The notes under the pieces were generated by a model, which saw only the letters and a list, made by a program, of their open reading frames with translations, did no database searches and had not been told where the DNA came from. A stretch of DNA of 32,000 nt from Zestosphaera tikiterensis (GTDB lineage: Archaea; Thermoproteota; Thermoprotei_A; Sulfolobales; NBVN01): the NCBI GenBank assembly GCA_003056265.1, contig NBVN01000007.1, positions 1-32,000 of the forward strand, written 5' to 3'. Made by a program: the position numbers and the translations under genes. This document shows, piece by piece, positions 6,254-26,446 of this stretch (position 1 is the first letter of the stretch; each line of letters begins with the position of its first letter).

Positions 6254-6535
6254 GAAAATCTAACTCACGGGTAAAGCAGTAGAAAATCTACCCCTCGATA
6301 AGAGTGAGTGTTAGAAAATCTAATAGAGGGTTAGACCCTGAGAGTAGATTCTCTGGGGGTAAGCCTAGAAAATCTAGTTCCTACGTGAGTTAGATTTCAT
6401 GAGGTTTTAGAGGTCTTGAAAAGCTAATCCCCCCTCAAGTGTAGATTTACACTCTACTAGAGTGTAAGCCTACGCCCACGCTTGAAGCCCTGAAAATCTA
6501 GTTGGAGGTGTAGTTAAGCCTCGATTAACTACACC
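6254..6535. repeat. Non-coding iteron-like block: five or more GAAAATCTA units plus inverted TAGATT(T/C)xx units and nested hairpins
   Basis: GAAAATCTA occurs at 6254, 6282, 6314, 6368 and 6492, with GAAAAGCTA at 6418. Inverted TAGATT units lie at 6345, 6391 and 6442. Inverted repeat between 6254-6269 and 6384-6398. An 11-bp-stem hairpin pairs GGTGTAGTTAA (6507-6517) with TTAACTACACC (6525-6535). No ORF spans the block. Confidence 0.7.
6415..6500 (+). repeat. Copy A of an ~85-bp repeat (inverted partner at 26362-26446)
   Basis: By-eye alignment of 6415-6500 with the reverse complement of 26362-26446 gives about 80 percent identity with one 1-nt gap. The identical 22-mer core is ATTTACACTCTACTAGAGTGTA. 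Confidence 0.75.
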
Positions 6536-6607
6536 CCCTAGGCGGTTAAACCACCCTACATGTGTCAGTATTATATATTATATTATAGGAAGCTAATTCT
6601 TTTTCAA

Positions 6608-7258
6608 CTACCCCTCTTTATGTTTGGTTTTCATGTTCTCAACCATTCCAATCTTTTCCTTCCGTTCAAACACTCGTATCTCCTCAGGCTTCGGGAGATC
6701 CTTAATACTGTAAACCTTAGCGTAAACCCTAGATCCATAAACCCTGAAGACCGCGTCCCTCCCGACTGGTTCTACGCCTAAGTCCAAACCAACCCTCACT
6801 TCCTTACCTCTCTTCACAATCCTATCCACAAACCCAACCTCCTCAATAAAACCTAAGAAGACGAACGGAGCGATAACACGTTGGATATAACACCTATCGG
6901 GAGTTAAAGAGAAGGAAACGTTAACAACCCTATACACTATTGGAACAGCATGCATAAAGCTCCAGACGAACGTCACCCACCCGTAATCGTCAACGCACAT
7001 ATCAGTCATTTTTCTCATAGGACCAACTGTGTAGTAAAGGTTGAAGTAGTCATAATTTGGATTAAGAAGAGAAAGAAAGTTACCAAGAGAAACATATATC
7101 TTTCTTAATTTTAACGTTTCATGATCTATCACCGTGTCAACTAAGACGTTAAGCTCAGGAAACACGTCACAAACAATCTTCACTTTACACATTGCCATTT
7201 CCAATGCTATGAAGTGAAAAGAAAATGAATAAACTTTCACGTGAATGTGTCTAGACAT
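6608..7258 (-). CDS. Hypothetical protein (216 aa; real start possibly the internal Met at about 7198)
   Basis: ORF track, no recognisable motif. The A/T-rich TATA-like sequence abuts the annotated ATG, so a downstream start (MAMCKVKIV...) is plausible. Confidence 0.5.
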   Translation of the reverse strand: MSRHIHVKVYSFSFHFIALEMAMCKVKIVCDVFPELNVLVDTVIDHETLKLRKIYVSLGNFLSLLNPNYDYFNLYYTVGPMRKMTDMCVDDYGWVTFVWSFMHAVPIVYRVVNVSFSLTPDRCYIQRVIAPFVFLGFIEEVGFVDRIVKRGKEVRVGLDLGVEPVGRDAVFRVYGSRVYAKVYSIKDLPKPEEIRVFERKEKIGMVENMKTKHKEG

Positions 7259-7947
7259 AGATATAATATATAATAGGAAACATTTTCTTTTTTTAACTAG
7301 TTAAACCCTCTTCACCCTCTGGTGCATATTGTTGCTTCTGCTTAAGTTCTTCTAAATGTAGGTCTAGAGGGGAATTTCGCTAAGTAGATATAATATATTT
7401 TTATTATAGGCAGACTTTGGTTTACCTAAAGGTAAACTTTCTTTCCTACGTTACCTTTTCTACGTTACTTGGTACCCCCTTTAGGGGGTAAGAACGGGTT
7501 CGCTTATGATGGAAATGAAATCGCAATCGCTATTATCATTATTATTAGAACTGGAATAATAATAGTATTAGGATTAGTTTCCCTTTACTCAGCGATACCC
7601 CCCGTCTAGAAAAAAGGTAGTAAAACTTTACCTCTGCTTTTCAGTCCTTTTCCCTAGAGTTTTATCTGTTATTAGAACCTTTCTTTGAAATGAATCTTCG
7701 GATAAAACAGATTTGCTTTACTAGTTGCTGAATTTAAAAAGCACTTTGAAGGGTTATAGGTAGGCCGGTAACAAGCAGATAAACACAACGAGTATTAGGA
7801 GTAGGATCAACGATGTTGGAGTAGGTCTGATCAAGGAGAAAATCTACACGCTAGATACTGGAGAGTATGTTGAAGTCCAAAGTTTAACAGAAATTCTAGG
7901 CTGGCTTAGCGATAATAACCGTACATTACTGGAGAAGCAATAGTGCT

Positions 7948-8572
7948 AGGCTGGATACGCTTCTTAAAAGGTTTAGGAAGGAGGGAAAGCACGGCGAGCA
8001 GCGTAAAGCCCTGAGAATAATAGCAAAGATTGTGGCCAACACGAGGCACTTGGTTGAGGACTACGCGGCATGGATAGCGGCAAAGACAGGACTAGCAGTA
8101 GGGAAGATAGCATCACTCCTACGATAAGCGACAGAGCACTATTCGGGACTCCGACCACTCACCCGCTTAAGCCTTGCACAAAACCGATAATCCCTCGACA
8201 AGTCGAGATACCTGCATCGGTGTCATGTACGTGCGATTGGGCCAGTATGATATCGTCTTTCGAGCTCGATAAGGGAGTATAAAAGGAGTATACAGGATCC
8301 TGCTTGTAAGCAAAGACGGTTCCGAGACATTTATAGTACTGAGAGTTAAAGACATGTATAGAGCTTGGCTACTAGCTTTTGGCGATCAGAGTACAAGAGT
8401 TGCTGATGAGCTAAAATGGGGGACTACTCATGTGTTAGCTGGTATGGTTTTTAATACTCGACGTGATATTGTACTCATTAAAGATCCTAACGAAAATATC
8501 CTAGATGTTAAAGTATCACAAGAGAGGGAAACAGCTCATTTCTTTTTAACCCACCTTAAGACGGTGTTGTGA
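7948..8572 (+). pseudogene. Possible decayed transposase-like gene, broken over at least two frames
   Basis: Own translation: 7948-8127 reads RLDTLLKRFRKEGKHGEQRKALRIIAKIVANTRHLVEDYAAWIAAKTGLAVGKIASLLR then a stop. ORF 8354-8572 ends ...ILDVKVSQERETAHFFLTHLKTVL. That ending resembles, from memory, the (V/L)DxxxSxxRxxxxAxxFLxxxL region of IS6-type DDE transposases. Only short overlapping ORFs lie between the two pieces. Confidence 0.3.
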
Positions 8573-8755
8573 AGGGGTAGCTCTGTTTTCAACTAAAGTT
8601 ACTTCCGTGTCCTTTAGTATTGTAGTTAGCTCATTTAGGTTCTCTTTAAAGATTCCGTAAGTGATTGCCGTGAGAGAACAGCTAGTCTGGGCATATTTAG
8701 AAATATGCATACCCTATTATAACCCTATATTATAGTATATAGTGGTGCATCCAAT

Positions 8756-9586
8756 ATGGTTGGACCAGTATTTTTGACGCTAATTATATTAGGATTTATA
8801 ATGATTTTGTTCATAAGATTATGCGGTATGTTGCTTTGGTATACTATTATGTCTCTTTATGTTTTTTGTGTTTCTCTATTTTTAACAATTAAATACGTTG
8901 ATAATATATTTTTAAAAGTAAATGGACTGATACTTCTTTCTATTATTTTATTACTAACATCTATCGATATTATAGCGTCAATAACTCAAAATCTAGCTTT
9001 TATAAAAAACCTTCTATTAAAATTTGGTCATGATTGGGCATATGCTTCTTCAATAGGGATTATCCATTCTTTAAGTTCGTTATATTCATATTTATTAGGT
9101 ATAAATTTCTATATGAATAATGATGTATTCTTAGAACAATTAGAACCCTATCTTACTACAATGCATTTAGGTATATTAACAATGACAGCGATAGTAACAA
9201 CAATAATATCATTAATGATTTACTTGCCAAGGTTACAAGAATATTATTCTTTTAGTATAAGAGTAACTTTGATAATGGCTGCAGCATTATTATCAATTTC
9301 AGCTTTTTCTCTAGGTATGTTTTCTGGTATGGCTTCAGAGAGAATTTTAGTTTATACTTTTATAATAGGATCTATCATTGCATTAGGGCTTGGGGGAATT
9401 TTTGGTGTACCTTTATTAGCTTTTTCTTCAGTTAAAATTGTTGATGATAAAAGAGTACCACTATTCTCAATACCAGCTATGTTAGCTGGTGTAATATTAT
9501 TTGTATCATTATTCATATACTCTACATTATCTATTAAATCTGAGCTATATAATGAAATAAAAGCTATTTTGGACTTAATATCATAA
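8756..9586 (+). CDS. Polytopic integral membrane protein (about 8 hydrophobic segments), function unknown
   Basis: The 276-aa ORF is dominated by I/L/F-rich hydrophobic helices. It lies in a visibly AT-rich islet. A TATA-like sequence, TATATTATAGTATATA, lies about 25-40 nt upstream. Confidence 0.7.
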   Translation: MVGPVFLTLIILGFIMILFIRLCGMLLWYTIMSLYVFCVSLFLTIKYVDNIFLKVNGLILLSIILLLTSIDIIASITQNLAFIKNLLLKFGHDWAYASSIGIIHSLSSLYSYLLGINFYMNNDVFLEQLEPYLTTMHLGILTMTAIVTTIISLMIYLPRLQEYYSFSIRVTLIMAAALLSISAFSLGMFSGMASERILVYTFIIGSIIALGLGGIFGVPLLAFSSVKIVDDKRVPLFSIPAMLAGVILFVSLFIYSTLSIKSELYNEIKAILDLIS

Positions 9587-9924
9587 TTTAAATTTAAGGA
9601 TATGGTACACATGTGCTATAGGGTTATCAGCTATGGTATCTGTTTGAAATTCTCATCAAGTGTTAGGATCCTCTCTATGCTATAGTGCTTGCAAGTTAGA
9701 TTAGGGCTACTAGTGCATATGCAGGTAGTAGGTGATGTCTGCAACAGCATCCCAGAATACCTAATACCTACACAGCCTAGGTCTTAACGATCCTGACATT
9801 ATGATTATCTCTATTCTTTTGCTAACCTCAATGCCTGAAGTTATGAAGTTTAAAACTACATTAACATAACTATATAGCGGTAATTAGTCAAAACGCTAAA
9901 ACATAGAGGTAAGGAGGATTTGCT

Positions 9925-10290
9925 ATGTCTGTGAGAGACAGCCAGTTCCATAATAAAGCGATAGTAGATGAGATTATTGGATTTATTGCAGAGCATTATA
10001 GCAGTTTTATGGTTGAGGACGCACTATTTCAGGAATTGAGGGAGTCCATTAAGAATTTATCAATAGAACTCTATATGAAATACCTTTATGAATGCGAGCA
10101 AGTGAGTTATACGTCTAGTTGCCGAGGAGGGATTGAGAAATATCTTAATGAGCTGCTAAGAACGTTCTATGCTACAAGCAATGAGCCTGTTAGGCTTGGA
10201 GCATTTAGAGCATTGCTCCATGAGGTATATAGACGAGTTCATGGCAGTTGTAACCATACTATAATCGGATTGCAATGGGTTACATTATGA
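9925..10290 (+). CDS. Hypothetical protein (121 aa)
   Basis: ORF track. AGGAGGA lies 7 nt upstream of the ATG. No recognisable motif. Confidence 0.55.
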   Translation: MSVRDSQFHNKAIVDEIIGFIAEHYSSFMVEDALFQELRESIKNLSIELYMKYLYECEQVSYTSSCRGGIEKYLNELLRTFYATSNEPVRLGAFRALLHEVYRRVHGSCNHTIIGLQWVTL

Positions 10291-10480
10291 TTGCTTTTAG
10301 TTACTGACGGATTAAGCGTTTGCAGTAGTATTTGATAGTATCACTACCTTATCACTACAGCATAACTATCAATAACTACCGCATAGAGTGAAAAACATTA
10401 GAATAGAATAAGTGTTATGTATTGTTATGTCTGTTAATTAAGTTTCTAATAAAAACATATTTAATTTAGGATGCGGGATC

Positions 10481-11527
10481 TTATCGCCTTAAGACAGCCA
10501 GAACTATGGCTAACCCGATGAAGAGGGCAATGAATGGCCAGTAATTCTTTAAGATTTCATTAATTCTCTCTATTGTATCTTCTATGCGTATTAAAGGTTG
10601 AGCAGTTGGTACTATGGCCGTTTTGTTAATGGTTCTTGCATCTTCGCCTATAGATATTGCTATTGATTTATGTCCTAGGCTATCGTTGGTGGGAGTCACT
10701 ACTTTATGAATGATTTCATCGTTCGGAAGTCGTAGTACTGCTCCTGTGAGGTTATAAGTGGCGCTGATCTTAGCATAAGTTACGAGTGATTCGTCCCTCC
10801 ACCCTTCCAGCTGAACAGCCGAGCCCGCCGTCCAGTCTATAATACCCTCAATCCGTAGTAAGGTGGTATGATTATAAGTAAGCAACACCTTGAACGGAGC
10901 TTTCAATGCCTTTGCAGTAACCTTATGAAGACCCGAAAGGACATTGTTTACAGGCTCTATAACGTAACTGCTAGCCTCAGAACTCGAAAAGTCCCCAGAG
11001 AGATCCCCATCAACGAGGATTGTCAAGTTGTAGGGCGAATGCTTTACAACCCCTACTTCGACATTTATTATTCCCTCAATAGAGACTGTTGAAATAGTAA
11101 TTACGCTAGGTGATAAAGGTATCGACAGCTTAGTAGGGTCGTAGTAGGTTCTCACGAACCAAGCCTGCGGTTGCTCTTTCCTCAAGTCTACAACGCCTTC
11201 AAGATCTAACATAACAGAGCCATTCTCTATGTCTATAATTCTCACATACCAGACCCCAACATCTTTTGAAGCATTGAAGATACCGACAACTTTAATGACA
11301 TCACCAGAAGCTAGGCTTATACTCTTGTTGATTACCTGCTGCACCCCATCGTTGAATGAAAGTAAAAGTATAACGGTAGCATTGATATTCTTCAAAGCTC
11401 TGATATTATCTAAACTTAGAGAAAGTTTATCGGCTTCAGAATTTGAAGCTGTTAAAGTGGTGTTTAGAGGGATACTCACAACAATGATAAGAACCGCTGC
11501 TATGACCGTCAAATTAACTCGTCTCAT
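10481..11527 (-). CDS. Secreted, C-terminally membrane-anchored surface (glyco)protein
   Basis: N-terminal signal/TM (MRRVNLTVIAAVLIIVVSIPL). C-terminal TM plus basic tail (YWPFIALFIGLAIVLAVLRR). Many N-x-S/T sequons (NAT, NKS, NAS, NGS, NLT, NHT, NDS, NKT). The start overlaps the upstream gene by 14 nt. Confidence 0.75.
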   Translation of the reverse strand: MRRVNLTVIAAVLIIVVSIPLNTTLTASNSEADKLSLSLDNIRALKNINATVILLLSFNDGVQQVINKSISLASGDVIKVVGIFNASKDVGVWYVRIIDIENGSVMLDLEGVVDLRKEQPQAWFVRTYYDPTKLSIPLSPSVITISTVSIEGIINVEVGVVKHSPYNLTILVDGDLSGDFSSSEASSYVIEPVNNVLSGLHKVTAKALKAPFKVLLTYNHTTLLRIEGIIDWTAGSAVQLEGWRDESLVTYAKISATYNLTGAVLRLPNDEIIHKVVTPTNDSLGHKSIAISIGEDARTINKTAIVPTAQPLIRIEDTIERINEILKNYWPFIALFIGLAIVLAVLRR

Positions 11528-12242
11528 CGCTTTTCACCTCCTGGGATGTAGCCGAAAGTCGTAGAAGCCCTTCTTCAATTTCTGACTCAGCCAGAGGAAG
11601 AAGCAGGACGCAGTACACTTCATTGACGTCGTCGAACCTAGCCTTAAAGATCGCCTTAGCCCGACCGAGGATATGTTCAATTAGATTCACTGCGGTATCA
11701 ATGTATTCGTCACTTCCGACAGCGAAAATCGCGTAGTCTACATCTTTCCTAGGCTCGTGTATCGGATACAGAACCAGGATCTCGTTGGTCCTGTCGTCTA
11801 TGTGTTTACCGCTTTTGAGTAGGTTGAGAATCTCTGCGAATTCATATCCTTCCATTGGCCTGAACACGAGAGGCTTGGTTACTACGTATAGACCAGGTCC
11901 TAAGTTTGTGAGTAAATGTGACGCGTCAGAATGTTCAGAGTTTGTTAAGGCTACGGCCATGATAATATAGGTCGGTTCAAGAATTTTGTTCATCTCAGTG
12001 TGGTTTAGTAGGTTCTCAACTAGGATTAATATATGTCTCCCACCGTTGATTGCGTCGTTTGCTAGGCCCATGAAGTACTCGAGTTTTTGTTGGGAGACTC
12101 TATCATGAGGGTTCACCGCGTCTATGTCGCCGTTAGCATTGTTTGTTGGTGTTGGATCTTCTCTTTTTGTAGAATTCTTCTTGAGCCATTTTGTATTGTC
12201 ACCATTCATTTTTAGAATCACCCCCCATTTTTTGATCGGCAA
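11514..12242 (-). CDS. Hypothetical soluble protein, middle gene of a three-gene operon (likely start is the ATG at 12209)
   Basis: ORF track. Overlaps the upstream gene (11 nt if the start is MNGDNTKW) and the downstream gene (14 nt). No recognisable motif. Confidence 0.6.
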   Translation of the reverse strand: MPIKKWGVILKMNGDNTKWLKKNSTKREDPTPTNNANGDIDAVNPHDRVSQQKLEYFMGLANDAINGGRHILILVENLLNHTEMNKILEPTYIIMAVALTNSEHSDASHLLTNLGPGLYVVTKPLVFRPMEGYEFAEILNLLKSGKHIDDRTNEILVLYPIHEPRKDVDYAIFAVGSDEYIDTAVNLIEHILGRAKAIFKARFDDVNEVYCVLLLPLAESEIEEGLLRLSATSQEVKSDETS

Positions 12243-12942: not shown

Positions 12943-13080
12943 GAGTTTACCCTCATAGTTTAATTCTTTTTCGAGGTTAATAAACCTTTTGGAAGAATTC
13001 TACCATTAGAAGAATTAAGCTATTTTAAATGAACTCCAATATATAGAAATATTTTAAATCATTTTACGAAAATTATAACA

Positions 13081-18099: not shown

Positions 18100-18430
18100 T
18101 ATTCCACTAAACAAACAGAAAACTCCATCCATGATATTTTGAAGAGATTATGTTCTGATAACTTAAATGCTAACGCCCTATGCTTCTAGTGATAAGTTTA
18201 AATTAGGGGTAGTAAAGAAATAATTGTAGGGTCAAATGAATAAAGACAAATTAGAGACTCTGCTAACCGCAATGAAAGAACTGAAAGAACATTTGGAGAG
18301 ATCTCGATAACAGAATCTACCCTGTTTGTGGCAAACTGATATATGCTACAGTTTGATACGATGGTCAGAACCAATAATAATAATTTTTATGATATTTCAT
18401 TGAAAGACCTAGAGTAAAACATTGCAGAGA

Positions 18431-18635: not shown

Positions 18636-19310
18636 TTAACTAGTCTTTAGATTGTTCTTACCTAGCTTTAGCCCGTATTTCATCGCTGCCTCGTTTACTT
18701 TCTTTACGAACCTGGGGTAGCTTATCCTGTAGTTTTCGGCTCTCGCCATTCTCCATAAGTCTTTCTTGCTTAGGTATGGGTATTTACGGATTAGCTTAAC
18801 GACGAATTCCTCGGGGATCGACGGTGGTCTGCCGACGTGCTTCCCTTCCTTCCTAGCTCTTTCCATCCCCGCTTTGATTTTCTCCTTCAATGCCTCAACG
18901 TATTTTTGGTAGCCGTACGCTAAAGCCCTCACAACTATGTCGAACATTAACTTCCTCAACGCTTCGTCAGGTATTGCCGTCAGCGACTGAAGCCACTCCT
19001 CTTGATAAGTTATTACGTTCACGCCCCTCTCCCTTAAGCCGTCGAGTGTTTTAACTAGGTAGTCATACCTTCTTGAGATCCTGTCAAGCGAAAAAACGAG
19101 TATAGCGGCACCCTCCTTAGAAGCTAACTCAACCGCCTTAACCCACCCAACCCTCTCCTCAGGCTTCGTTTCATACCCGCTAACACCCGGATCCTCAAAC
19201 ACTCCAACAACCTCAACACCCCTCGACTCGGCGAACCTCCTTAAAGCAAGAACTTGATTCTCAACCTTCTGATCCTCCGTCGACACCCTAGCGTAGATCA
19301 CGGCCTTCAA
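18636..19310 (-). CDS. Serine recombinase (resolvase/invertase type: N-terminal catalytic domain, C-terminal HTH)
   Basis: MKAVIYARVSTEDQ (catalytic Ser motif), DPGVSGY, SLDRISRR, and the HVGRPP linker followed by an HTH-like C-terminus. TTG start. TTTAAATA lies about 35-40 nt upstream on the minus strand. Confidence 0.92.
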   Translation of the reverse strand: MKAVIYARVSTEDQKVENQVLALRRFAESRGVEVVGVFEDPGVSGYETKPEERVGWVKAVELASKEGAAILVFSLDRISRRYDYLVKTLDGLRERGVNVITYQEEWLQSLTAIPDEALRKLMFDIVVRALAYGYQKYVEALKEKIKAGMERARKEGKHVGRPPSIPEEFVVKLIRKYPYLSKKDLWRMARAENYRISYPRFVKKVNEAAMKYGLKLGKNNLKTS

Positions 19311-19674: not shown

Positions 19675-19891
19675 CAAATACGTTGAAGCCCCTGATAGTA
19701 CGTTTTTTAAACTTAATAGAGAGCAACCTCCCGGACATCCTTAGGGAAGATGGTAAGCTAAAATCGCCTAAGTCCATAGTAGAGAAACTTCATAAGCTAT
19801 TGAAACAGGATTGATACGTACGTTACTAGGGATTCTTAGAAAGATGACTTACGTTGAAGAAAGACCTTTAATTTCTTTCTAGTGAACGAAG

Positions 19892-21805
19892 TTACTTATG
19901 GATTACAGTTAACGTTGGGGTTTTCTCAGGTTCAGCAAGTCTAGTGATTATGACGTACTTACCGTATTTACTAAGTTCAGAGACAACTTTGTCGAATCTC
20001 CTAGGGTCGAAAGCTACTAAAGCTTCATCCGCTATAATGGGTGCCACACCTTGATATTCCTCAATGATCTTTAACCTATAGCCTACGAGTACGGCTATCA
20101 ACGCTAGAGCTGTTCTCTCGCTAGTGCTTAAAACCTCAATCGGTTGTTCGTATTCTCTACCACTTGGGAATTTTCTAATAACTCTAATATCAAATACTCG
20201 CTTAAGCATACCAGTAGTGGGGTCTTTCTCCTCCCTTTTATATAGCCTCACACCTTTAATCCAAGTGAAGCCCAGTTCTTTAATGACTTCAGAAGCTATT
20301 CTAGAGAACTCATCGCTTATACGTGATAGTGTTTCATATAATTCCTTCTCAACGTTTTCAAGTTCTTTACTTGTCTTTTCGATCTTCTCCCTTACTTCAG
20401 TTAATTTCCTACCAGCTTCACTTCTTTTAGCGATTTTTTCTTCTAAATCTCTTATGTGTTGCTCTACTTCACCAAGCCTTCTCTCTAGCTCAGCTCTTCT
20501 GTCAGCAGCAACGCGTTCTTCTTCTGTAAGTTGCTTTCTTAATTCTTCCAACTCTTTTTCAATTAACCCCCTCTCGTTTTTAAGCCTTGCTACCTCATCT
20601 TTATAATGTTCAAACGCTCTCTCAAGCTCTTCAATCCTCCTCTTAAGAGATGGTAGCTTAACATCCACGATTTCTCTAACTTCGTTGTATTTCTTCTGTA
20701 GACTCTCTAACTCCTTCCATAATTCCTTAAGCTTTTCATTTGCGTTAGCTATCCTAACCTCATAATCTTTTACTATAGACTCCTTACTCTTCATAACCTC
20801 GTCTTCTACTTCCACCTCACGTCTAGACCAGAACTCTTCAGGGTTTTCAATAGGTTTACCGCATACTGGACACGCAGATGCTTTTGTAGCTTTAGCTAGG
20901 TGTACAACTGGGATTCTAGCGTCTTGACCAACGAGATACTCTCTACGTTCGTTCTCCAGCTTCTTTATAAGGCTGTCAGTCCTGTCTATTTCTCCTTTAA
21001 TCTTTGCTAACTCTTCCTCAGGATTCTCGTGAATGGCGTAAAACTCTCTAACCATAGTTTCATACCTCTCTAGATCCGCACGTGCGTCATCTATAGCTTT
21101 CGCAGTAGTTGCTATGATGCCCTCAGGTTTCTCTAGGTCTTCTATTCTCTTACTGACTTCACCAAGTCTTCTATTGAGGGTGGCTATCCTATCTTGTAAA
21201 CCTCTTACTCTTTCAATAGATATAGCCCTCAGCTTCTTAAGCTCTTCCTCTAAATCCTTCTTTAACTCCTCATATTTCTGTCTTTCCTCACTTACCTTCT
21301 TAAGTTCTTCAACATCCTTAAGGAGGAGGTTCTCCTCAGATTTTAGCTTATCTAACTCCTCCCTTAAGCTTTCCCTCATCTTTTCATACTCATCAAGCCT
21401 GAAGACCTTAACTAAGTAGTCAGTAATATCGGCGTTTGCTTGAGTTACAACCCTTCTGGCAACCTCCCCTAAGTAAGGATCTAATATGACATACTTCAAC
21501 CTATCGCTAACGATAACAGGCTTAGATTCAACCTCTAAAACCCTACCGTTTACTCTCTTAAACCTCCTAATGAATTCCCTACTGTCAATAACTATCTTTA
21601 TATATCCCTCATCAGCATCGATGTTTAGAAGCTGTTCAAGAGGGATAGTGTTGGGTGCGTACATCGCTAGTATAGCTTTAACAAGGGAGGTTTTACCAGC
21701 AGCATTCGGTGCTACAACTTCGTTTAACCCTTCACTAAACTCAAACTTATGTTTGCCTATAAGACCTCCTACATTTTCAACTTCGACCACTATCATGGGC
21801 ACCAC
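19892..21805 (-). CDS. SMC/Rad50-like ABC ATPase with a long coiled coil and a central CxxC zinc-hook-like motif. Likely start is Met4 at 21796.
   Basis: Walker A is APNAAGKTS. About 400 aa of E/K/L-rich heptad sequence follow. CPVCGKP is encoded at 20861-20872 mid-coil. The signature-like motif is LSTSERT and Walker B is PIIADEA. Met4 forms an ATGA overlap with the upstream gene's stop. Confidence 0.85.
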   Translation of the reverse strand: MVPMIVVEVENVGGLIGKHKFEFSEGLNEVVAPNAAGKTSLVKAILAMYAPNTIPLEQLLNIDADEGYIKIVIDSREFIRRFKRVNGRVLEVESKPVIVSDRLKYVILDPYLGEVARRVVTQANADITDYLVKVFRLDEYEKMRESLREELDKLKSEENLLLKDVEELKKVSEERQKYEELKKDLEEELKKLRAISIERVRGLQDRIATLNRRLGEVSKRIEDLEKPEGIIATTAKAIDDARADLERYETMVREFYAIHENPEEELAKIKGEIDRTDSLIKKLENERREYLVGQDARIPVVHLAKATKASACPVCGKPIENPEEFWSRREVEVEDEVMKSKESIVKDYEVRIANANEKLKELWKELESLQKKYNEVREIVDVKLPSLKRRIEELERAFEHYKDEVARLKNERGLIEKELEELRKQLTEEERVAADRRAELERRLGEVEQHIRDLEEKIAKRSEAGRKLTEVREKIEKTSKELENVEKELYETLSRISDEFSRIASEVIKELGFTWIKGVRLYKREEKDPTTGMLKRVFDIRVIRKFPSGREYEQPIEVLSTSERTALALIAVLVGYRLKIIEEYQGVAPIIADEALVAFDPRRFDKVVSELSKYGKYVIITRLAEPEKTPTLTVIHK

Positions 21806-22158
21806 CTGTTAAGCACGTGTTCGGTTATACCGAGCTTTTTAAGAGTTTCAACTTCGCTAGAGCTAAGACCCTTTGAAAGCCATCTTTCAGCAGCTCTCCT
21901 GATCTCCTTAGGTATCCAGTCTTCGTCAATATACCTAGCATACATCAGAGACGTCTGCAGACCCCTCTCCTTGGCTTTGAGATATGCTTGGTAAACGAAA
22001 GTAACTGAGTAACCATCGTCGAGACTGAGTAAGTATACAATATCGCCTCTCTTTAATACATCTACATGAATGGGATGCTTTTGCTTTATCTTGTTTAGCT
22101 TTGTCACAGTATTCCTATACAAGTTCAAATCTGGATCTTCAACCTTTAATATCAGCAC
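21793..22158 (-). CDS. Small protein (121 aa) translationally coupled to the Rad50-like ATPase
   Basis: ORF track. GTG start, with TATA-like CTTAAATA about 40 nt upstream. The basic/helical C-terminus (RRAAERWLSKGLSSSEVETLKKLGITEHVLNRW) could be an HTH, but this is not established. Confidence 0.6.
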   Translation of the reverse strand: MLILKVEDPDLNLYRNTVTKLNKIKQKHPIHVDVLKRGDIVYLLSLDDGYSVTFVYQAYLKAKERGLQTSLMYARYIDEDWIPKEIRRAAERWLSKGLSSSEVETLKKLGITEHVLNRWCP

Positions 22159-22222
22159 GTGTTATTTCACCAATAAATGGTAATGGTTTCAGAAGTATTT
22201 AAGCATTAATACAGAAATATTA

Positions 22223-22260
22223 AATAAAATCATTAATATAATAATATTAATGATTTTATT
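22223..22260. repeat. All-but-one A/T hairpin: 17-bp perfect stem and 4-nt loop, in the 129-bp spacer between the AAA+ gene and the 121-aa gene
   Basis: AATAAAATCATTAATAT / AATA / ATATTAATGATTTTATT, read directly. Confidence 0.6.
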
Positions 22261-22287
22261 AATACAAAAATATTAGAGCTTTAGAGT

Positions 22288-23046
22288 TCATATTACTTCG
22301 AGTCTCTCCAGCTTCTCTATGTAGTGCCTTATCACTATTCTCTCCACTTCTCTTGCGGATCTCGGCAACGGATTCATTGACGTTATCTCCTCCTTAACTC
22401 TGTTGTAGGGTACTCCGAGTTCTCTGCACCTCTTCTCTGCTATTGCTAAAGCCGTATCTATGTCGAGGGGTTTGAACTCTATCGGGTAGAGTCTGTCTAT
22501 TAGTGCTTTATCAACTAACTCGTACCAGTTGGTTGTTGCTATGACTCCTATTCTAGAGGTGTCTAGCTCGTCAAGCATGTGGAAGAAGACGTTGTCTTGG
22601 GCTATATGCCAAGACTCTATGCCTTCTCTCCCGCGTGACATGAATATTGACTCTACGTCGTCGAAGAGTATTATGGTATACCCCATAAGTTTTTTCGATT
22701 CTTCAAAAATCTCAACGATCCTTATCTCAGATTCGCCATATAGCGGTCTAGCTATGTCGGATGCGTCTACGAGGATAAGGTATACGTCCTTAAACTTTTT
22801 ACCTAATTCCCTAGCGACTGCGTAAGCAAGGCTGGTTTTCCCTGTTCCAGGCTCTCCATAGAGTAGGAAACCTTTAATACCTCTTTTAACTCCCTCTCTA
22901 AACTGATAGTAGAATGTCTTGAAGATTAGGTTGAATATCCTCTTATATTCCTCACCTACAAACCTACTGACGTCATAATCTTCAGGAACTCCAACAGCCT
23001 TAATTACCTTTAAAGGTTTGCTAAGTTCTTTAGCTCTTCTACTCAT
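22288..23046 (-). CDS. Classic-clade AAA+ ATPase, single ATPase module without a recognisable N-domain
   Basis: Walker A is LLYGEPGTGKTS. The pore-loop-region-like sequence is PLYGESEIRIVEIFEE. Walker B is IILFDDVE. Sensor-1/SRH is VIATTNWYELVDKALIDRL. Confidence 0.9.
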   Translation of the reverse strand: MSRRAKELSKPLKVIKAVGVPEDYDVSRFVGEEYKRIFNLIFKTFYYQFREGVKRGIKGFLLYGEPGTGKTSLAYAVARELGKKFKDVYLILVDASDIARPLYGESEIRIVEIFEESKKLMGYTIILFDDVESIFMSRGREGIESWHIAQDNVFFHMLDELDTSRIGVIATTNWYELVDKALIDRLYPIEFKPLDIDTALAIAEKRCRELGVPYNRVKEEITSMNPLPRSAREVERIVIRHYIEKLERLEVI

Positions 23047-23503
23047 AGGTTAATCTCCTTTTTCTAGATTCGTTTTCTAGGATATGCTTAATCATTATGT
23101 ACGTGTCTTTAGAAATTTCATATTCTTCGCAATATCCAGCAACTACTCCACCCATAATTGACCCGCTCTCTACATCAAAACGATCTTTTATGAATTTAAG
23201 CACCAGTTCATTTCTTTTTCTGCCTTCTGAATATTCTGAAGACGTAGAAGGTGAGGAGTACTTCTCTTCTATCGCATCTATAGGTATAGATTCCTTATGT
23301 TCATAAACGTGTATGTACCCGTGATTGTAGCCCGGATCGAACACGACGTAGTACTTTCTATCTTTACTTACGTAGAATAAGTAAAGACGACGGAAGTGCT
23401 CTCCCCACTTAGTGTTTTCACAGATGTTTACTTTAATACCCTCTATAGATCCTTTCGTATCTCTCCCTAACTCTCCTAACATACCTTTTAACACCTTCTT
23501 CAT
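23039..23503 (-). CDS. Hypothetical protein (154 aa), overlapping both neighbours
   Basis: ORF track. It shares an 8-nt overlap (ATGAGTAG) with the AAA+ gene start and a 50-71 nt overlap with the upstream 302-aa ORF. No motif recognised. Confidence 0.55.
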   Translation of the reverse strand: MKKVLKGMLGELGRDTKGSIEGIKVNICENTKWGEHFRRLYLFYVSKDRKYYVVFDPGYNHGYIHVYEHKESIPIDAIEEKYSSPSTSSEYSEGRKRNELVLKFIKDRFDVESGSIMGGVVAGYCEEYEISKDTYIMIKHILENESRKRRLTYE

Positions 23504-24341
23504 GCATTCTACACCATAGAATGTTTAACCTATATCCGTTTGAAGTAACTTGCTCAATGATGTCGTTACTTACCATAAATTCAAACGCTTCAGTTCTAAC
23601 GCTTCTCCACCACTCAATCGGCGGTCTTTTCTTATTTTCATCACTAAGGAAGTAGTTATCTACGTAGTTCACTCTAGCTACCTCCAACACATCCCTGATT
23701 CTCATTGAATGCGATTCAAGACCTGATAAAGTGTATATCATTGGAAGCTTGATAAACCAAGGTATCACGGGTTTCTCGCCGAGAGTTCTATGTAGTTTAA
23801 CTGCTGTGCTCATTATGTAGACACCTATTAACCCGCTTATGACACTTAGCATTTCTTTAAATTGTCTAGGGTCGATGAGCGTTACTAGGTGTTGAGCTAC
23901 GGGACCTACAAGTTGGAAGAATTCATCGTTTATTCTATACACATATCGAGGATCGTCACTACTAACCAAGATTTTATAATAAGGTAGCGGCTTCAGATAA
24001 TCCAGCAATCTATCTGTCGGTATCTGAAAAGCATAGCTCCATTCTTCAAGTATGTCCTTAGATATGTACAGTTTTGTCAAGTCTTTACTATAGTACGCTT
24101 CACCACAACGGTCAACAACAGACCATAGAATCTTAAGAGGTTTCTGCCTGAAGAAGCGGTACCTGAGCAAGACGTCTCTAAACCTAGAAGCTAAAGCATA
24201 TGCTTCACTAGGGCTAGAAAGTACGCGAGTTTCCTTCTTTGATGTTTGTGCGTTTAACTCATCAAGTATTGCAAGTATAGTCTCCTCTGTAAGGGGTTTG
24301 TAGTTTTTCAATGCCCAAACATTTACTGTTGGTTGAGCCAA
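23433..24341 (-). CDS. Hypothetical protein (302 aa)
   Basis: ORF track. TTG start overlapping the upstream ORF by 19 nt. No motif recognised. Confidence 0.65.
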   Translation of the reverse strand: MAQPTVNVWALKNYKPLTEETILAILDELNAQTSKKETRVLSSPSEAYALASRFRDVLLRYRFFRQKPLKILWSVVDRCGEAYYSKDLTKLYISKDILEEWSYAFQIPTDRLLDYLKPLPYYKILVSSDDPRYVYRINDEFFQLVGPVAQHLVTLIDPRQFKEMLSVISGLIGVYIMSTAVKLHRTLGEKPVIPWFIKLPMIYTLSGLESHSMRIRDVLEVARVNYVDNYFLSDENKKRPPIEWWRSVRTEAFEFMVSNDIIEQVTSNGYRLNILWCRMHEEGVKRYVRRVRERYERIYRGY

Positions 24342-25204
24342 GGTCTCCCCCTCGAAAGTCTTCTCTCCCTCTTCAACATGTAGTATCTACGGTAAGCTGG
24401 CGCTACCACCATGTTTGCGAAAGTTCCTGAGACTTCTAGGGGGTATGTCCTCACGATTATTTTGTTGTCGTAAAGCACTCCTATAGCTTTAAAGTATTCA
24501 ACTTCAAACCTATCCCTTAAAGGTCTTAAAGACGCTATGAGTTTCTTAGCTTCACTCCACTCGGTTGGTTCTATCGTTGGTTTAGTAACTACCGTTCCAT
24601 CTCTTTTAACGTAGGCTAAAGGCGTTAGCAAACCAATCATCGTGGTGTAGCTTTTTGGAAGTCTTGAAGTTTTCTGCATTACGTAAAGTGAGCTTATACC
24701 TGACACAACTTTATGGGGGTAGGAAAACGCGTCTGATTCAAAACCTGCGAGTGATTTAAAATCAACTTTTTCAGCAACGTAAACCGCTACGTGTCTAATA
24801 AGCTCGTTGATTACGTCGGGTTTAAGCCTGATTTTACTTGGTGTTGTATTTACAACGTCGGCAAGCCTTAAGTCTTCCATAGATTTAAAGGCTGACCTAA
24901 CGTTATCGACCTCATCCGGTTCAAAACCCGGCACTTCATCCTCAGAAATTTCATATAGGTTCATATCCTTCTTTAGGAAGCCGTAGCTAGCCTTAGCTAA
25001 AGAATAAACAAGCACCTTCTCTAGGCTTTTAGAAGTGAAGGGAAGGAAGTAAATTAACCCAGCGAAAAACGAAGAAACGTCTACATGACCCTGCACAACA
25101 GCTTCAAGAGCTACATCAACTGTAATACCCGCAAACCTTCTTAAGGAAACCCATCTCTTATCTATATATCTATAATCCACGTAAACTGACAAATGCACCA
25201 CCAA
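24323..25204 (-). CDS. Hypothetical protein (293 aa), first gene of the operon
   Basis: ORF track. GTG start. TATA-like TTTATAAG lies about 30 nt upstream on the minus strand (plus-strand 25226-25240 region). No motif recognised. Confidence 0.65.
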   Translation of the reverse strand: MVVHLSVYVDYRYIDKRWVSLRRFAGITVDVALEAVVQGHVDVSSFFAGLIYFLPFTSKSLEKVLVYSLAKASYGFLKKDMNLYEISEDEVPGFEPDEVDNVRSAFKSMEDLRLADVVNTTPSKIRLKPDVINELIRHVAVYVAEKVDFKSLAGFESDAFSYPHKVVSGISSLYVMQKTSRLPKSYTTMIGLLTPLAYVKRDGTVVTKPTIEPTEWSEAKKLIASLRPLRDRFEVEYFKAIGVLYDNKIIVRTYPLEVSGTFANMVVAPAYRRYYMLKRERRLSRGRPWLNQQ

Positions 25205-25318
25205 TAAGTATTTCTTTTTCGTAGCTTATAAACTTTATATCTAGCTAGTCGTAAAACTCAAAGCAACGTCTTAATTAAACTTTATTTTAAGTAGATGAAG
25301 AAACAATGCCAAAACCCT

Positions 25319-25495
25319 TTATATTCTATTTATAAGGTATAATACATTGTTTAGTGCTCCAAGTTTGAAGTCGGCTCTATTATCTCTCCTTAGTACTTCG
25401 TCGAGTGTTCTGCTGAGGTCTTTTCTCAGCTTAATCTTCTCTATTCTTACTTTCTGTATCGCTCCATTTGGTAGGGAGTACTCGTATTCACGCAC
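25319..25495 (-). CDS. Possible small ORF (58 aa) between the operon promoter and the CRISPR array
   Basis: Own translation from a GTG: (M)REYEYSLPNGAIQKVRIEKIKLRKDLSRTLDEVLRRDNRADFKLGALNNVLYLINRI. AGGGAGAAGGAA lies directly upstream. It is below the ORF-track cutoff. Confidence 0.3.
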   Translation of the reverse strand: MREYEYSLPNGAIQKVRIEKIKLRKDLSRTLDEVLRRDNRADFKLGALNNVLYLINRI

Positions 25496-25516
25496 TTCCT
25501 TCTCCCTACCTAGGTG

Positions 25517-25910
25517 GTTATAGTTTTTCCCTCAATCTTCAGCTATTAGGACATGAAGTTGAAGTATAGACCTAATCGGATGCCACTCTTTCAGTCTTTT
25601 TCTATTGTTTCGATACCCGAGGTCTCTCAAAGCCCTCATAGTGTCGTAGATCAGCTGCGTCTTTCAGTCTTTTTCGATTGCTTCGGAGTATGAAGTGCTT
25701 GACTACGCCACGAAATACGTGGTGGGGGAGGACACCGCTTTCAGTCTTTTTCTATTACTTCCCTACTTCTTTCGTAGTCTTGAGGTTCTGCACTACGTGT
25801 TGCCTGAGCCATCTTTCAGTCTTTTTCTATTACTTCCCATATCCGCTTCTAATTTCGGCTTCGCCTTCCAGCCTAGACTCTAATACCTTTCAGTCTTTTT
25901 CTATTACTTC
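25517..25910 (-). CRISPR. CRISPR mini-array: five clear 24-nt repeats plus one heavily degenerate terminal repeat, with spacers of 49-53 nt
   Basis: Repeats start at 25588, 25661, 25738, 25813 and 25887. Plus-strand form is CTTTCAGTCTTTTTCTATTACTTC; transcribed-strand form is GAAGTAATAGAAAAAGACTGAAAG. The GAAAG 3' end sets the orientation to minus. The two low-coordinate repeats carry substitutions (TTGTTTC, CGATTGCTTC), and 25517-25540 is a decayed copy, consistent with a leader at the high-coordinate side. The spacers are unique. Confidence 0.85.
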
Positions 25911-26038
25911 AAGTTATTGTTTGACGTAGGAGTATTTAAATATTTCCGTGGTGGTTTTCGGAAAGACCATCAAACACCATCAGATGCCGACCATCACGTT
26001 GTCGGGTCGTAAACGTATGATTTATACTCCAGTTGTTA
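25911..26038 (-). promoter_or_regulatory. Putative CRISPR leader with a palindromic TATA-like box TATTTAAATA (25933-25942)
   Basis: A 128-nt unique sequence lies between the newest repeat (25887-25910) and an oppositely oriented solitary repeat (26039-26062). The TATA-like element lies about 23-32 nt from the first repeat. Confidence 0.45.
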
Positions 26039-26062
26039 GAAGCAATCATAAAAGACTGAAAG
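26039..26062 (+). repeat. Solitary CRISPR repeat in the opposite orientation (20 of 24 identical to consensus)
   Basis: GAAGCAATCATAAAAGACTGAAAG. No further repeat follows at the expected 73-77 nt spacing. Confidence 0.6.
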
Positions 26063-26184
26063 GAATCATCTAGTTAAATCGGATTAAGTCCGATTACCGG
26101 ACACTTCACGTGTGCTTTGATGGACACCCCCTATAACCCCCTATTTAAATACTGTCCGGTTACCGGATTAAGTGGGGTGAGTAC

Positions 26185-26346
26185 ATGACGAAAGGAGGAG
26201 AATCTATCTCTCCGCGGTTAATGCGTTCGGTTTACGCCACGTATAAAATCATATGCGGGCACGGCAGTATTAAGCTCGCAGATCTGGAAGTTCTGCAAGA
26301 ACCTCAAAAAACTTGTAACAGAAAGGCTGTTTTTCTACTTAAATAA
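26185..26346 (+). CDS. Possible small ORF (53 aa)
   Basis: Own translation: MTKGGESISPRLMRSVYATYKIICGHGSIKLADLEVLQEPQKTCNRKAVFLLK. GGGGTGAG lies 4 nt upstream, and TATTTAAATA (26142-26151) lies about 35-43 nt upstream. Confidence 0.3.
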   Translation: MTKGGESISPRLMRSVYATYKIICGHGSIKLADLEVLQEPQKTCNRKAVFLLK

Positions 26347-26361
26347 CTAAACTAATGTAAT

Positions 26362-26446
26362 TAGATTTTCTGGGTTTTAGGCATGAGAGTAAGCATACAC
26401 TCTAGTAGAGTGTAAATTTACACTTAGGAAGGATTAGCTTTTCGAG
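26362..26446 (-). repeat. Copy B of the ~85-bp repeat (inverted relative to 6415-6500)
   Basis: See copy A. Contains GTGTAAATTTACAC (26410-26423) and the TACACTCTA-C-TAGAGTGTA palindrome. Confidence 0.75.

What the first reader, a model, noticed from the sequence alone, without database searches (positions are those of the whole stretch)
6415..26446. Inverted ~85-bp repeats bracket ~20 kb of accessory genes that include a serine recombinase
The segment 6415-6500 and the reverse complement of 26362-26446 align at about 80 percent identity with one 1-nt gap, including an identical 22-mer. The enclosed about 19.9 kb contains almost all of the defence-like cargo: the transposase remnant, the ligase-like gene, MNT-HEPN, a resolvase/invertase-type recombinase at 18636-19310, the Rad50-like/AAA+ operon and the CRISPR array.

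There are three possibilities. The repeats may be terminal inverted repeats of a large composite or integrated element. They may be substrates for recombinase- or homology-driven inversion of the segment. Or they may simply be two copies of a small dispersed element or ncRNA gene.
Basis: partly seen in the sequence, partly recalled or inferred. Interest (0 to 1): 0.65.

Follow-up and report, generated by a model that had tools for sequence, protein, structure and literature searches.

The report
Repeated intergenic binding-site module, archaeal plasmid
The two inverted ~90-bp repeats are real, but they are most likely two copies of a recurring intergenic protein-binding module on a ~33.5-kb mobile replicon of a hyperthermophilic archaeon, not the ends of a 20-kb island or a proven inversion switch.

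Summary
Window 6414-6503 and the reverse complement of 26359-26447 align at 83.3% over 90 columns with one gap (E 3e-19) and share an identical 22-mer.

The boundary and inversion readings are not supported.
- A metagenome contig joins the window's end to its start through 1,529 bp. The source therefore behaves as a ~33.5-kb circular or permuted mobile replicon, with Orc1/Cdc6, an origin and a restriction-modification system outside the bracket.
- There is no target-site duplication and no transposase.
- Every junction-spanning contig from four datasets shows the window orientation.
- The serine recombinase lies 7 kb from the nearer repeat and has its own perfect 15-nt inverted repeats 1.26 kb apart.

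The core of each repeat is an 18-bp palindrome, AAGTGTAAATTTACACTT. It occurs five times on the replicon, always between genes. It recurs about 210-280 bp upstream of homologues of the adjacent winged-helix gene (26693-27700, called "P342" here) in other elements. One lineage carries symmetric half-site changes.

A co-existing variant contig diverges right beside the repeat.

Best reading: operator- or iteron-like binding modules, probably for P342, that also mark mosaic recombination junctions. This is modestly interesting, and function remains inferred.

The parts
6414..6503 (+). Left copy of the ~90-bp module (GAAAAGCTAATCC ... two overlapping palindromes ... GAAAATCTA)
26359..26447 (-). 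Right copy of the module, inverted; it ends about 245 bp upstream of the P342 start codon
6437..6454 (.). 18-bp palindrome AAGTGTAGATTTACACTC inside the left copy; it overlaps a second 17-bp palindrome, ACACTCTACTAGAGTGT, at 6449-6465
26408..26425 (.). 18-bp palindrome GAGTGTAAATTTACACTT inside the right copy; the 17-bp palindrome lies at 26397-26413
6160..6177 (.). Third copy of the 18-bp palindrome (AAGTGTAAATTTACACCC), without the rest of the module
29379..29396 (.). Fourth copy of the palindrome (AGATGTAAATTTACACTT), in the intergenic region upstream of the restriction-modification module. It lies next to the second breakpoint of variant L093. A fifth copy lies 135 bp beyond the window end, in L005.
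6254..6500 (+). Cluster of GAAAATCTA / GAAAAGCTA 9-mers: six in one orientation plus three degenerate inverted ones
   Evidence: 8 exact copies in the window vs 0.74 expected
5892..6607 (.). ORF-free, repeat-rich region that holds the left copy. About 450 nt of it is conserved at ~75% in variant contig L093.
26693..27700 (+). 'P342': a 335-aa protein with an N-terminal winged helix and an uncharacterised C-terminal domain. It is the only protein shared with the other element that carries the module, and the candidate binder of the palindrome.
5328..5879 (-). bPH_2-domain membrane protein gene, the outward-facing gene on the left side
18636..19310 (-). Small serine recombinase of resolvase/invertase type: N-terminal catalytic domain, with a C-terminal region (about residues 160-224) that would hold the HTH in this family but gave no HTH-domain hit
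18274..18288 (+). Perfect 15-nt inverted repeat GAAAGAACTGAAAGA. Its partner lies at 19546-19560, so the pair brackets the recombinase gene. These are the nearer candidate sites for the recombinase.
25588..25912 (-). Mini CRISPR array: 5 repeats, with its own TATA-like box about 25 bp upstream of the first repeat. The right module copy lies about 450 bp further upstream.

Best explanation
The two repeats are members of a small family of conserved intergenic cis-elements on an archaeal mobile replicon. The host range is Desulfurococcales/Thermoproteota. The replication unit is about 33.5 kb and is circular or circularly permuted. Each copy is built around an 18-bp palindrome (consensus AAGTGTAAATTTACACTT). 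This overlaps a second 17-bp palindrome and is flanked by GGATTAGCTTTTC / TAGATTTTC motifs. The most likely function is a cluster of protein-binding sites of operator or iteron type, recognised by a dimeric DNA-binding protein. The best candidate binder is the winged-helix protein P342, encoded next to the right copy. The copies appear inverted because each has the same polarity relative to an outward-facing gene: P342 on the right and the bPH gene on the left. They do not delimit the 20 kb between them. As stretches of similarity shared by related co-resident elements, they also sit where gene modules have been exchanged. Shown: the repeat, the palindrome family, its conservation next to P342 homologues, circular closure, and the variant junction. 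Inferred: protein binding, the identity of the binder, and the regulatory, replication or partition role.
For: 1. The 16-mer core of the palindrome has 8 strand-matches at 4 sites in the window, against 0.07 expected. A fifth site lies in the 1,529-bp closing piece. All five sites are intergenic.
2. L050 is a different element from the same environment. It shares only the P342 homologue with the window (63% aa identity; tblastx). It carries the module core GAGTGTGAATTTACACTTAGGAAAGATTAGATTTTC 229 bp upstream of that gene, in the same orientation as the window's right copy. It has two more palindromes, at -127 and at +50 after the stop codon.
3. L056 and L057 have P342 homologues at about 41% identity. 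They carry GAGGGTAAATTTACCCCC at -209, where both half-sites have changed symmetrically. The core motif density is 0.24/kb in the 500 bp upstream of P342 homologues, against 0.03/kb overall.
4. P342 has a confident winged-helix domain (AF2 pLDDT 77.5; Foldseek matches only to wHTH proteins).
5. L005 joins window 32000 to window 1 through 1,529 bp at 99.9-100% identity. The bracket is therefore only one arc of a replicon. Orc1/Cdc6, an ORB-like origin and the restriction-modification system lie in the other arc.
6. L093 is 99.2% identical to window 25160-26463. It then continues into sequence about 75% similar to the window's left outer flank, and after that into sequence like 29418-29470.
7. 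Sulfolobus conjugative plasmids have an analogous ORF-free, repeat-rich section interpreted as a replication origin (PMC4390865).
Against: - No binding data exist.
- P342 homologues in most other loci (L048, L049, L051 and others) have no recognisable palindrome upstream, so the association is restricted to certain lineages.
- Similarity between the two copies extends over about 90 nt, more than a simple operator needs. This includes about 40 nt with no obvious symmetry.
- The extended 37-nt hairpin keeps one pair through a double change (G-C to A-T), which would also fit a structured RNA or DNA hairpin.
- P342 has many invariant charged and His residues in its C-terminal domain. This hints at an enzyme rather than a plain regulator.
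Confidence: 0.5

Rival explanations
1. Inversion substrates. The two copies are crossover sites at which a site-specific recombinase (the serine recombinase at 18636-19310, or P342 if it is an unrecognised recombinase) or homologous recombination flips the 19.9-kb arc relative to the 13.6-kb arc of the circle.
For: - The repeats are inverted, share an identical 22-mer, and contain dyad-symmetric cores of the kind recombinases use.
- A resolvase/invertase-type recombinase is on the replicon.
- Several contigs end at or near the repeats: L005 starts at 26369, L004 ends at 6380, and L002 ends at 6532.
Against: - Every contig that spans a junction shows the window orientation: L003 and L006 in JGI 3300005801, L004 in SRR17863203, and L102 overlapping L002 in SRR17771679.
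- The one aberrant junction, L093, is not the inversion isomer. Its outer flank is only about 75% identical to the window's left flank.
- The recombinase gene lies 7 kb from the nearer repeat and is bracketed by its own perfect 15-nt inverted repeat.
- L050 has the module but no serine recombinase on its 12.7-kb contig.
- The palindrome has five copies in mixed contexts, not an exclusive pair.
- The longest identical run between the copies is 22 nt at 83% overall identity, which is poor for homologous recombination.
Confidence: 0.12
2. Structured RNA, or a transcribed hairpin element. Each copy encodes a roughly 40-nt stem-loop within a small non-coding RNA or a long leader transcript.
For: - The left copy with its downstream hairpin folds much better than shuffled sequence (z = -5.1 on + and -5.3 on -).
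- The consensus hairpin is conserved in three copies, with one compensatory pair and several G-U pairs on the outward-facing strand.
- TATA-like boxes lie upstream in both orientations.
Against: - No Rfam match, even at E <= 1.
- The right copy does not fold better than shuffles on the strand homologous to the left + strand (z = -0.6).
- Wobble and mismatch changes in the 14-bp palindrome favour different strands in different copies, by inspection of the sequences.
- The conserved P342 promoter lies downstream of the module, so the module is not in that mRNA.
- Only 3-4 sequences are available, so covariation has no statistical power.
Confidence: 0.15
3. Functionless duplication or a recombination scar. 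The copies are leftovers of module shuffling between related co-resident elements and have no activity of their own.
For: - L093 and L050 show that the same non-coding sequence sits at different junctions in related elements.
- The right copy looks like a truncated version of the longer left region.
Against: - The palindrome core is kept nearly perfect in five intergenic sites, while the flanks have diverged to 75-83%.
- The palindrome is retained at the same distance from P342 homologues down to 41% protein identity. This argues for selection on the core.
Confidence: 0.15
4. Terminal inverted repeats of a ~20-kb composite transposon or integrated island.
For: The repeats are inverted and enclose many accessory genes.
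Against: - There is no direct duplication outside the repeats: TTTTAGAGGT on the left vs GCAAGCCTGA on the right.
- No transposase domain appears in any ORF scanned.
- The flanks belong to the same replicon and also carry accessory genes.
- The variant L093 differs outside the bracket, not by presence or absence of it.
Confidence: 0.02

Closest known systems
Hin/Gin/Cin/Pin invertible segments (small serine invertases with 26-bp hix/gix inverted sites)
   Same: The window has inverted repeats with dyad-symmetric cores, and the same replicon carries a small serine recombinase with an N-terminal catalytic domain (PF00239, phrog_125 'DNA invertase').
   Different: - In the known systems the sites are about 26 bp and flank a 1-4 kb segment that contains or abuts the recombinase gene (own knowledge).
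- Here the repeats are 90 bp at 83% identity and 19.9 kb apart.
- The recombinase gene is 7 kb from either repeat.
- The core motif has five copies.
- No second orientation was seen.
- The 15-nt inverted repeat at 18274/19546, which brackets the recombinase gene, resembles a Hin-like layout more closely.
Operator or iteron clusters of plasmids, for example the ORF-free repeat-rich 'section B' putative origin of Sulfolobus conjugative plasmids
   Same: The left copy sits in an ORF-free region of about 700 bp packed with several families of short direct and inverted repeats. It lies on an archaeal plasmid-like replicon and is partly conserved between related elements (PMC4390865).
   Different: - There is no sequence similarity to those plasmids.
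- This replicon also has a separate Orc1/Cdc6-linked origin-like region at 4274-4762.
- The protein linked to the sites, P342, belongs to no described family.
Dispersed palindromic 'recombination motifs' at borders of variable regions in Sulfolobus conjugative plasmids (pING/pNOB8 family; recalled from Greve et al. 2004, not retrievable here)
   Same: A short near-palindromic motif occurs several times per plasmid and lies at the edges of segments that differ between variants. Here the L093 breakpoints lie next to the palindromes at 26408 and 29379.
   Different: The motif sequence and the host lineage are different. The comparison rests on memory only: literature searches for the motif returned nothing.
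Archaeal MITEs (for example the Sulfolobus SM elements and the MITE on pTC1)
   Same: It is a short non-coding repeat, found more than once and in more than one element (PMC4390865 for a plasmid-borne MITE).
   Different: The unit has no terminal inverted repeats of its own and no target-site duplication. Copies share a core but have different extents. No genome-wide multiplicity could be shown: exact 20-mer scans of the genome, metagenome and viral collections found nothing.

Membership tests
Serine-invertase invertible segment (Hin/Gin type) | A pair of short inverted recombination sites with dyad symmetry flanks the segment | tested here: inconclusive
   Inverted copies with palindromic cores exist. 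However, they are 90 bp long, only 83% identical, and belong to a five-copy motif family.
Serine-invertase invertible segment (Hin/Gin type) | The recombinase gene lies inside or next to the segment, close to one site | tested here: not met
   The gene at 18636-19310 is 7.0 kb from the right copy and 12.1 kb from the left copy. It is bracketed by its own perfect 15-nt inverted repeat at 18274/19546.
Serine-invertase invertible segment (Hin/Gin type) | Both orientations are present in a population | tested here: not met
   Junction-spanning contigs from JGI 3300005801, SRR17863203 and SRR17771679 all show the window orientation. L093 is not the inversion isomer. Raw reads could not be examined, so a minority form is not excluded.
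Composite transposon / element with terminal inverted repeats | Target-site duplication directly outside the repeats | tested here: not met
   The outside flanks are ...TTTTAGAGGT and GCAAGCCTGA..., with no direct repeat.
Composite transposon / element with terminal inverted repeats | A transposase is encoded within the element | tested here: not met
   Pfam, PHROGs and NCBIfam scans of the ORFs submitted (the longest ORF at each locus of 6608-25204, plus seven short ORFs between 7973 and 26346) gave only a resolvase-type recombinase. The ORF-poor stretch 7258-8756 gave no hit.
Composite transposon / element with terminal inverted repeats | The flanks belong to a different (host) context | tested here: not met
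   L005 closes the window on itself through 1,529 bp. The flanks carry the replicon's own Orc1/Cdc6, origin and restriction-modification system.
MITE / dispersed small mobile element | Many near-identical copies with defined ends, their own terminal inverted repeats and target-site duplications | tested here: inconclusive
   There are two full copies here, one in L093 and a partial one in L050. The ends differ between copies and no terminal repeats or duplications were seen. The host genome was not available. Exact 20-mer scans were negative, but they demonstrably miss the source samples.
Non-coding RNA gene | Match to a described RNA family, or a conserved structure supported by covariation | tested here: inconclusive
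   No Rfam match. One compensatory pair among three sequences. Fold z-scores are strong for the left copy only.
Non-coding RNA gene | A transcript with defined ends | not testable with these tools
   No expression data are available.
Operator/iteron-type protein-binding site family | A short symmetric motif repeated in intergenic regions far above chance | tested here: met
   Five intergenic sites. In the window there are 8 strand-matches against 0.07 expected.
Operator/iteron-type protein-binding site family | Conserved linkage to the gene of a DNA-binding protein, with the site changing together with the protein | tested here: met
   The palindrome lies at -209 to -283 of P342 homologues in the window, L050, L056 and L057. 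L056/57 show a symmetric change to GGGTAAATTTACCC. The motif is absent from most other homologue loci, so the linkage is restricted to certain lineages.
Operator/iteron-type protein-binding site family | Demonstrated binding by the protein | not testable with these tools
   This needs EMSA, footprinting or ChIP.

The most novel reading that the evidence does not exclude
P342 is not a simple regulator. It may be the DNA-recognition and catalytic protein of an undescribed site-specific recombination or integration module of Desulfurococcales mobile elements. In that case the 18-bp palindromes, including the two inside the inverted repeat, would be its recombination sites. The two large copies could then mediate arc inversion or cassette exchange between co-resident elements. 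Hints:
- P342 has about 20 invariant charged, His and Tyr residues in a C-terminal domain with no known fold match.
- P342 homologues sit 230-293 bp from tRNA 3' fragments at the edges of integrated elements, often at contig ends.
- The P342 gene is bracketed by palindromes in L050 and in the window.
- The variant L093 lacks exactly the palindrome-bounded P342-M48 segment.
Probability: 0.1. Interest if true: 0.7.

Novelty: new member of a known kind. Interest (0 to 1): 0.3.

Why it matters
If the reading is right, the finding is mainly a correction. What looked like a 20-kb island bounded by inverted repeats is one arc of a small archaeal replicon. The repeats are cis-acting sites that recur between its gene modules.

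It still has some value:
- It defines a cognate pair, an 18-bp palindrome and an uncharacterised winged-helix protein family. The family is widespread at the edges of tRNA-integrating elements in hyperthermophilic Thermoproteota, and the pair can be tested directly in vitro.
- It documents a compact plasmid-like element that combines Orc1/Cdc6, an archaea-specific SMC-related protein, a mini-CRISPR array, a restriction-modification system and a possible self-contained recombinase switch.
- It shows where related elements exchange modules.

None of this overturns current understanding of archaeal mobile elements.

Tried and rejected
- **Genome-wide copy count.** Exact 20-mer scans of genome contigs, metagenome contigs and viral contigs returned 0 hits. 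The negative is weak, because contig L003 from a JGI metagenome does contain the 20-mer and was still not found. A 16-mer scan of viral contigs gave only 39 scattered hits in unrelated contigs, none followed up and taken to be chance.
- **Near-identical DNA in plasmid and phage collections.** No match.
- **Relatives of Orc1/Cdc6 and P342 in viral contigs.** None found.
- **CRISPR-leader reading of the right copy.** Rejected. The array has its own TATA-like box about 25 bp upstream of the first repeat, and the module lies 450 bp further away.
- **P342 as a tyrosine recombinase.**
  - No Pfam hit, even at E <= 1, across 20 homologues.
  - hhalign probability against a real Phage_integrase ORF was 0.6%.
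  - No fold match beyond the winged helix.
- **P342 as the transposase of an IS-like unit.** Flanking inverted repeats were found only in L050, not in 30 other loci.
- **P342 pseudogene next to the left copy.** None found by tblastn.
- **tRNA or attP in the window.** ARAGORN found no tRNA, and no T-arm-like fragment is present.
Not verifiable.
- **Contig ends near the repeats as evidence for inversion.** The L002/L102 break is a 30-bp overlap at a 29-nt hairpin (6508-6537). The L005/L093 branch is explained by a variant element.

Full report

Yes. A minus-strand self-comparison of the window gives 6414-6503 against 26447-26359. The alignment has 83.3% identity over 90 columns with one gap, E 3e-19, and is by far the best long-range inverted repeat. 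The ungapped core is 67 nt at 84%, and the alignment is shown. Both copies contain the identical 22-mer ATTTACACTCTACTAGAGTGTA.

Each copy has the same internal anatomy:
- GAAAAGCTAATCC;
- a few bases, then the 18-bp palindrome AAGTGTA(A/G)ATTTACACTC;
- an overlapping 17-bp palindrome, ACACTCTACTAGAGTGT;
- about 30 less conserved bases;
- GAAAATCTA.

**2. What the surroundings are**

The window is archaeal and looks like a mobile element.
- The CRISPR repeat ends in GACTGAAAG.
- An Orc1/Cdc6 gene (3237-4277) abuts an AT-rich stretch flanked by 34-nt inverted repeats at 97% identity, at 4274-4307 and 4729-4762.
- The 637-aa 'Rad50-like' protein scores above the NCBIfam cutoff for archaea-specific SMC-related protein (345 bits against 300).
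- Homologues of P342 occur in Desulfurococcales and other Thermoproteota MAGs, and homologues of the serine recombinase in Desulfurococcaceae, Sulfolobales, Thermofilaceae and Bathyarchaeia MAGs.

The key context result concerns contig L005 (JGI 3300005800, 10,486 bp). It equals window 26369-32000, then 1,529 bp, then window 1-3325, at 99.9-100% identity. The sequence therefore closes on itself as a 33,529-bp unit. The inverted repeats split that circle into arcs of 19.9 kb and 13.6 kb.

One caveat applies. The database lists a 48,380-bp contig for the identical P342 protein. I could not fetch it. A permuted or redundant assembly, or a larger variant, therefore remains possible.

The arc outside the bracket carries the replication genes and a Tsp45I-type restriction enzyme with an N6/N4 methylase. 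The bracket thus does not separate cargo from backbone.

**3. Tests of the boundary reading**

- The bases just outside the repeats, TTTTAGAGGT and GCAAGCCTGA, are not a direct duplication.
- No transposase domain was found in any enclosed ORF that was scanned or in the ORF-poor stretch 7258-8756.
- The flanks belong to the same replicon.

This reading is rejected.

**4. Tests of the inversion reading**

I used exact-protein look-ups to collect contigs from four independent datasets.
- Left junction in window configuration: L003 (JGI 3300005801), L004 (SRR17863203), and L102 overlapping L002 by 30 bp (SRR17771679).
- Right junction in window configuration: L006/L092 (JGI 3300005801).
- The one deviant contig is L093 (JGI 3300005800).
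  - It is 99.2% identical to window 25160-26463, covering the CRISPR array, a 53-aa ORF and the right repeat.
  - It then runs into about 350 bp that is only about 75% similar to the window's left outer flank.
  - After that it runs into sequence 88.7% similar to 29418-29470.

L093 is a variant or related element that lacks the P342-M48 peptidase segment. It is not the inversion isomer.

The serine recombinase is of resolvase/invertase type (PF00239, E 6.5e-27; phrog_125 'DNA invertase'). It lies 7 kb from the nearer repeat. It is also bracketed by a perfect 15-nt inverted repeat, GAAAGAACTGAAAGA, at 18274-18288 and 19546-19560. Only five such exact pairs within 3 kb of each other exist in the whole window. 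That 1.29-kb unit resembles a Hin-like layout more than the 20-kb bracket does.

Assemblies report only majority forms, so a rare inversion is not excluded. I give it 0.12.

**5. What the repeats are**

The 18-bp palindrome is not confined to the two copies. It also occurs at 6160-6177 and 29379-29396 (8 strand-matches against 0.07 expected). A fifth site lies 135 bp past the window end. All five are intergenic.

The left copy sits in a 716-bp ORF-free region (5892-6607). That region also holds six GAAAATCTA/GAAAAGCTA units in one orientation, degenerate inverted ones, and TTCATAA repeats.

A search with the adjacent protein P342 (26693-27700) found 22 homologues besides P342 itself and later 49 loci.
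- **L050.** This is a different element that shares only the P342 gene with the window. It carries the module core GAGTGTGAATTTACACTTAGGAAAGATTAGATTTTC. It also has a second GGATTAGCTTTTC, a second palindrome upstream of its P342 gene, and a third palindrome just downstream.
- **L056 and L057.** Their P342 proteins are about 41% identical to the window's. They have GAGGGTAAATTTACCCCC at -209, so both half-sites changed symmetrically.
- **Other homologue loci.** Most have no recognisable palindrome.

P342 has no Pfam, PHROG, NCBIfam or PADLOC match. Its model (pLDDT 77.5) has an N-terminal winged helix and an unmatched C-terminal domain.

Both window copies have the same polarity, palindrome then GGATTAGCTTTTC, pointing toward an outward-facing gene. 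That gene is P342 on the right and the bPH_2 gene on the left. This polarity explains why the copies are inverted relative to each other.

**6. Mechanism**

The best-supported account is that the copies are clusters of protein-binding sites of operator or iteron type.

The palindrome is probably read by a P342 dimer through its winged helix. The sites could regulate adjacent promoters, or they could serve replication, partition or integration functions of the element. They are also stretches of similarity shared by related co-resident elements, and they lie where modules differ between variants (L093, L050).

Shown:
- the repeat family;
- its intergenic placement;
- its linkage to P342;
- the site-protein co-variation in one lineage;
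- circular closure;
- the variant junction.

Inferred:
- protein binding;
- the identity of the binder;
- the physiological role.

Confidence is 0.5.

A structured-RNA alternative rests on three observations:
- a conserved 37-nt hairpin with one compensatory pair;
- strong fold z-scores for the left copy only;
- no Rfam match.

I give this 0.15. A functionless scar gets 0.15. Terminal inverted repeats of a transposon get 0.02.

**7. Comparison with known systems**

The repeats work most like plasmid operator or iteron clusters. Sulfolobus conjugative plasmids have an ORF-free repeat-rich section interpreted as a replication origin (PMC4390865). From memory, those plasmids also carry dispersed near-palindromic motifs at the borders of variable regions. 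I could not retrieve that source.

The arrangement is not a member of the Hin/Gin invertible-segment class, because two defining features were tested and not met. It is not a composite transposon, because three were not met. Membership as a MITE or an ncRNA is inconclusive.

**8. A more novel possibility**

P342 homologues lie 230-293 bp from tRNA 3' fragments in L048, L058 and L059. They lie 370-660 bp from such fragments in L054, L064 and L068. These fragments are often at contig ends. The family therefore marks the edges of tRNA-integrating elements.

Three further facts leave about a 10% chance that P342 and its palindromes form an undescribed recombination module:
- P342 has many invariant polar residues.
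- Palindromes bracket its gene.
- The palindrome-bounded P342-M48 segment is absent from L093.

Profile comparison with a tyrosine integrase was negative.

**9. Verdict**

The result is a new instance of a known kind of feature. Interest is modest, at 0.3.

Noticed in passing
window 26369-32000 plus window 1-3325, via L005 5633-7161: Contig L005 joins the window's end to its start through 1,529 bp, giving a 33,529-bp circular or permuted replicon. The joining piece encodes an HTH protein and a 189-aa protein. A 48,380-bp contig is recorded for the identical P342 protein but could not be fetched.
   Followed up: partly
window 3237-4762: An Orc1/Cdc6 gene is followed directly by an AT-rich stretch (AATAAA-type tandem repeats at 4371-4456). 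This stretch is flanked by 34-nt inverted repeats at 97% identity, at 4274-4307 and 4729-4762. The layout matches an archaeal ORB-flanked replication origin.
   Followed up: no
window 2704, 2732, 4681, 5002, 5100, 29509; L050 about 9441: A second palindromic motif family, TTGATAAGCTTATCAA, occurs six times in intergenic regions. It also lies between the two P342-type palindromes in L050. It is probably the site of another regulator.
   Followed up: no
window 18274-18288 and 19546-19560: A perfect 15-nt inverted repeat, GAAAGAACTGAAAGA, brackets the serine recombinase gene. The arms start 1,272 bp apart, with 1,257 nt between them. This is a possible Hin-like self-contained invertible unit. It is one of only five such exact pairs within 3 kb in the window.
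   Followed up: partly
window 18057-18099: A 43-bp perfect palindrome (21-nt arms, 1-nt centre) lies in the 830-bp non-coding gap between the nucleotidyltransferase gene and the recombinase gene.
   Followed up: no
window 25588-25912, 26039-26062 and 18431-18455: A mini CRISPR array has five repeats and four spacers on the minus strand. Two solitary repeat-like units are also present. One is inverted 128 nt upstream of the array, and one lies near the recombinase. No cas genes are in the window.
   Followed up: no
L093 1306-1721 vs window 26463-29418: A co-existing variant contig replaces the P342 plus M48-peptidase segment (about 2.9 kb) with about 350 bp. That 350 bp is homologous at about 75% to the window's left ORF-free region. 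Both breakpoints lie next to copies of the 18-bp palindrome.
   Followed up: partly
L048 9757-9805, L058 43-90, L059 about 640-690; L054 about 6650-6690, L064 about 4975-5016, L068 about 2400-2445: tRNA 3'-half fragments lie a few hundred bp from P342 homologues, frequently at contig ends. L048 is a 47-kb chromosomal contig with ribosomal protein genes. P342-family genes therefore sit at the edges of tRNA-integrated elements.
   Followed up: partly
window 19892-25204: An operon on the minus strand encodes an archaea-specific SMC-related protein (NF045487, above cutoff), a 121-aa protein, an AAA+ ATPase (TRIP13/IetA-like in PADLOC) and three proteins with no family match.
   Followed up: partly
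window 6566-6590 and 7252-7280: The unannotated ORF 6608-7258 is bracketed by inverted TATA-like 15-mers (TATTATATATTATAT). Similar TAGATATAATAT boxes recur at 5999 and 7383 and look like the element's standard promoter.
   Followed up: no
window 7258-8756: This 1.5-kb stretch has only short ORFs and no Pfam hits.
   Followed up: partly
window 6205-6235 and 19454-19483: A shared ~30-nt promoter-like sequence, ATGCTAGTT(G/A)TTATAT...GAAAA(A)TCT, lies in the left repeat-rich region and upstream of the recombinase gene.
   Followed up: no
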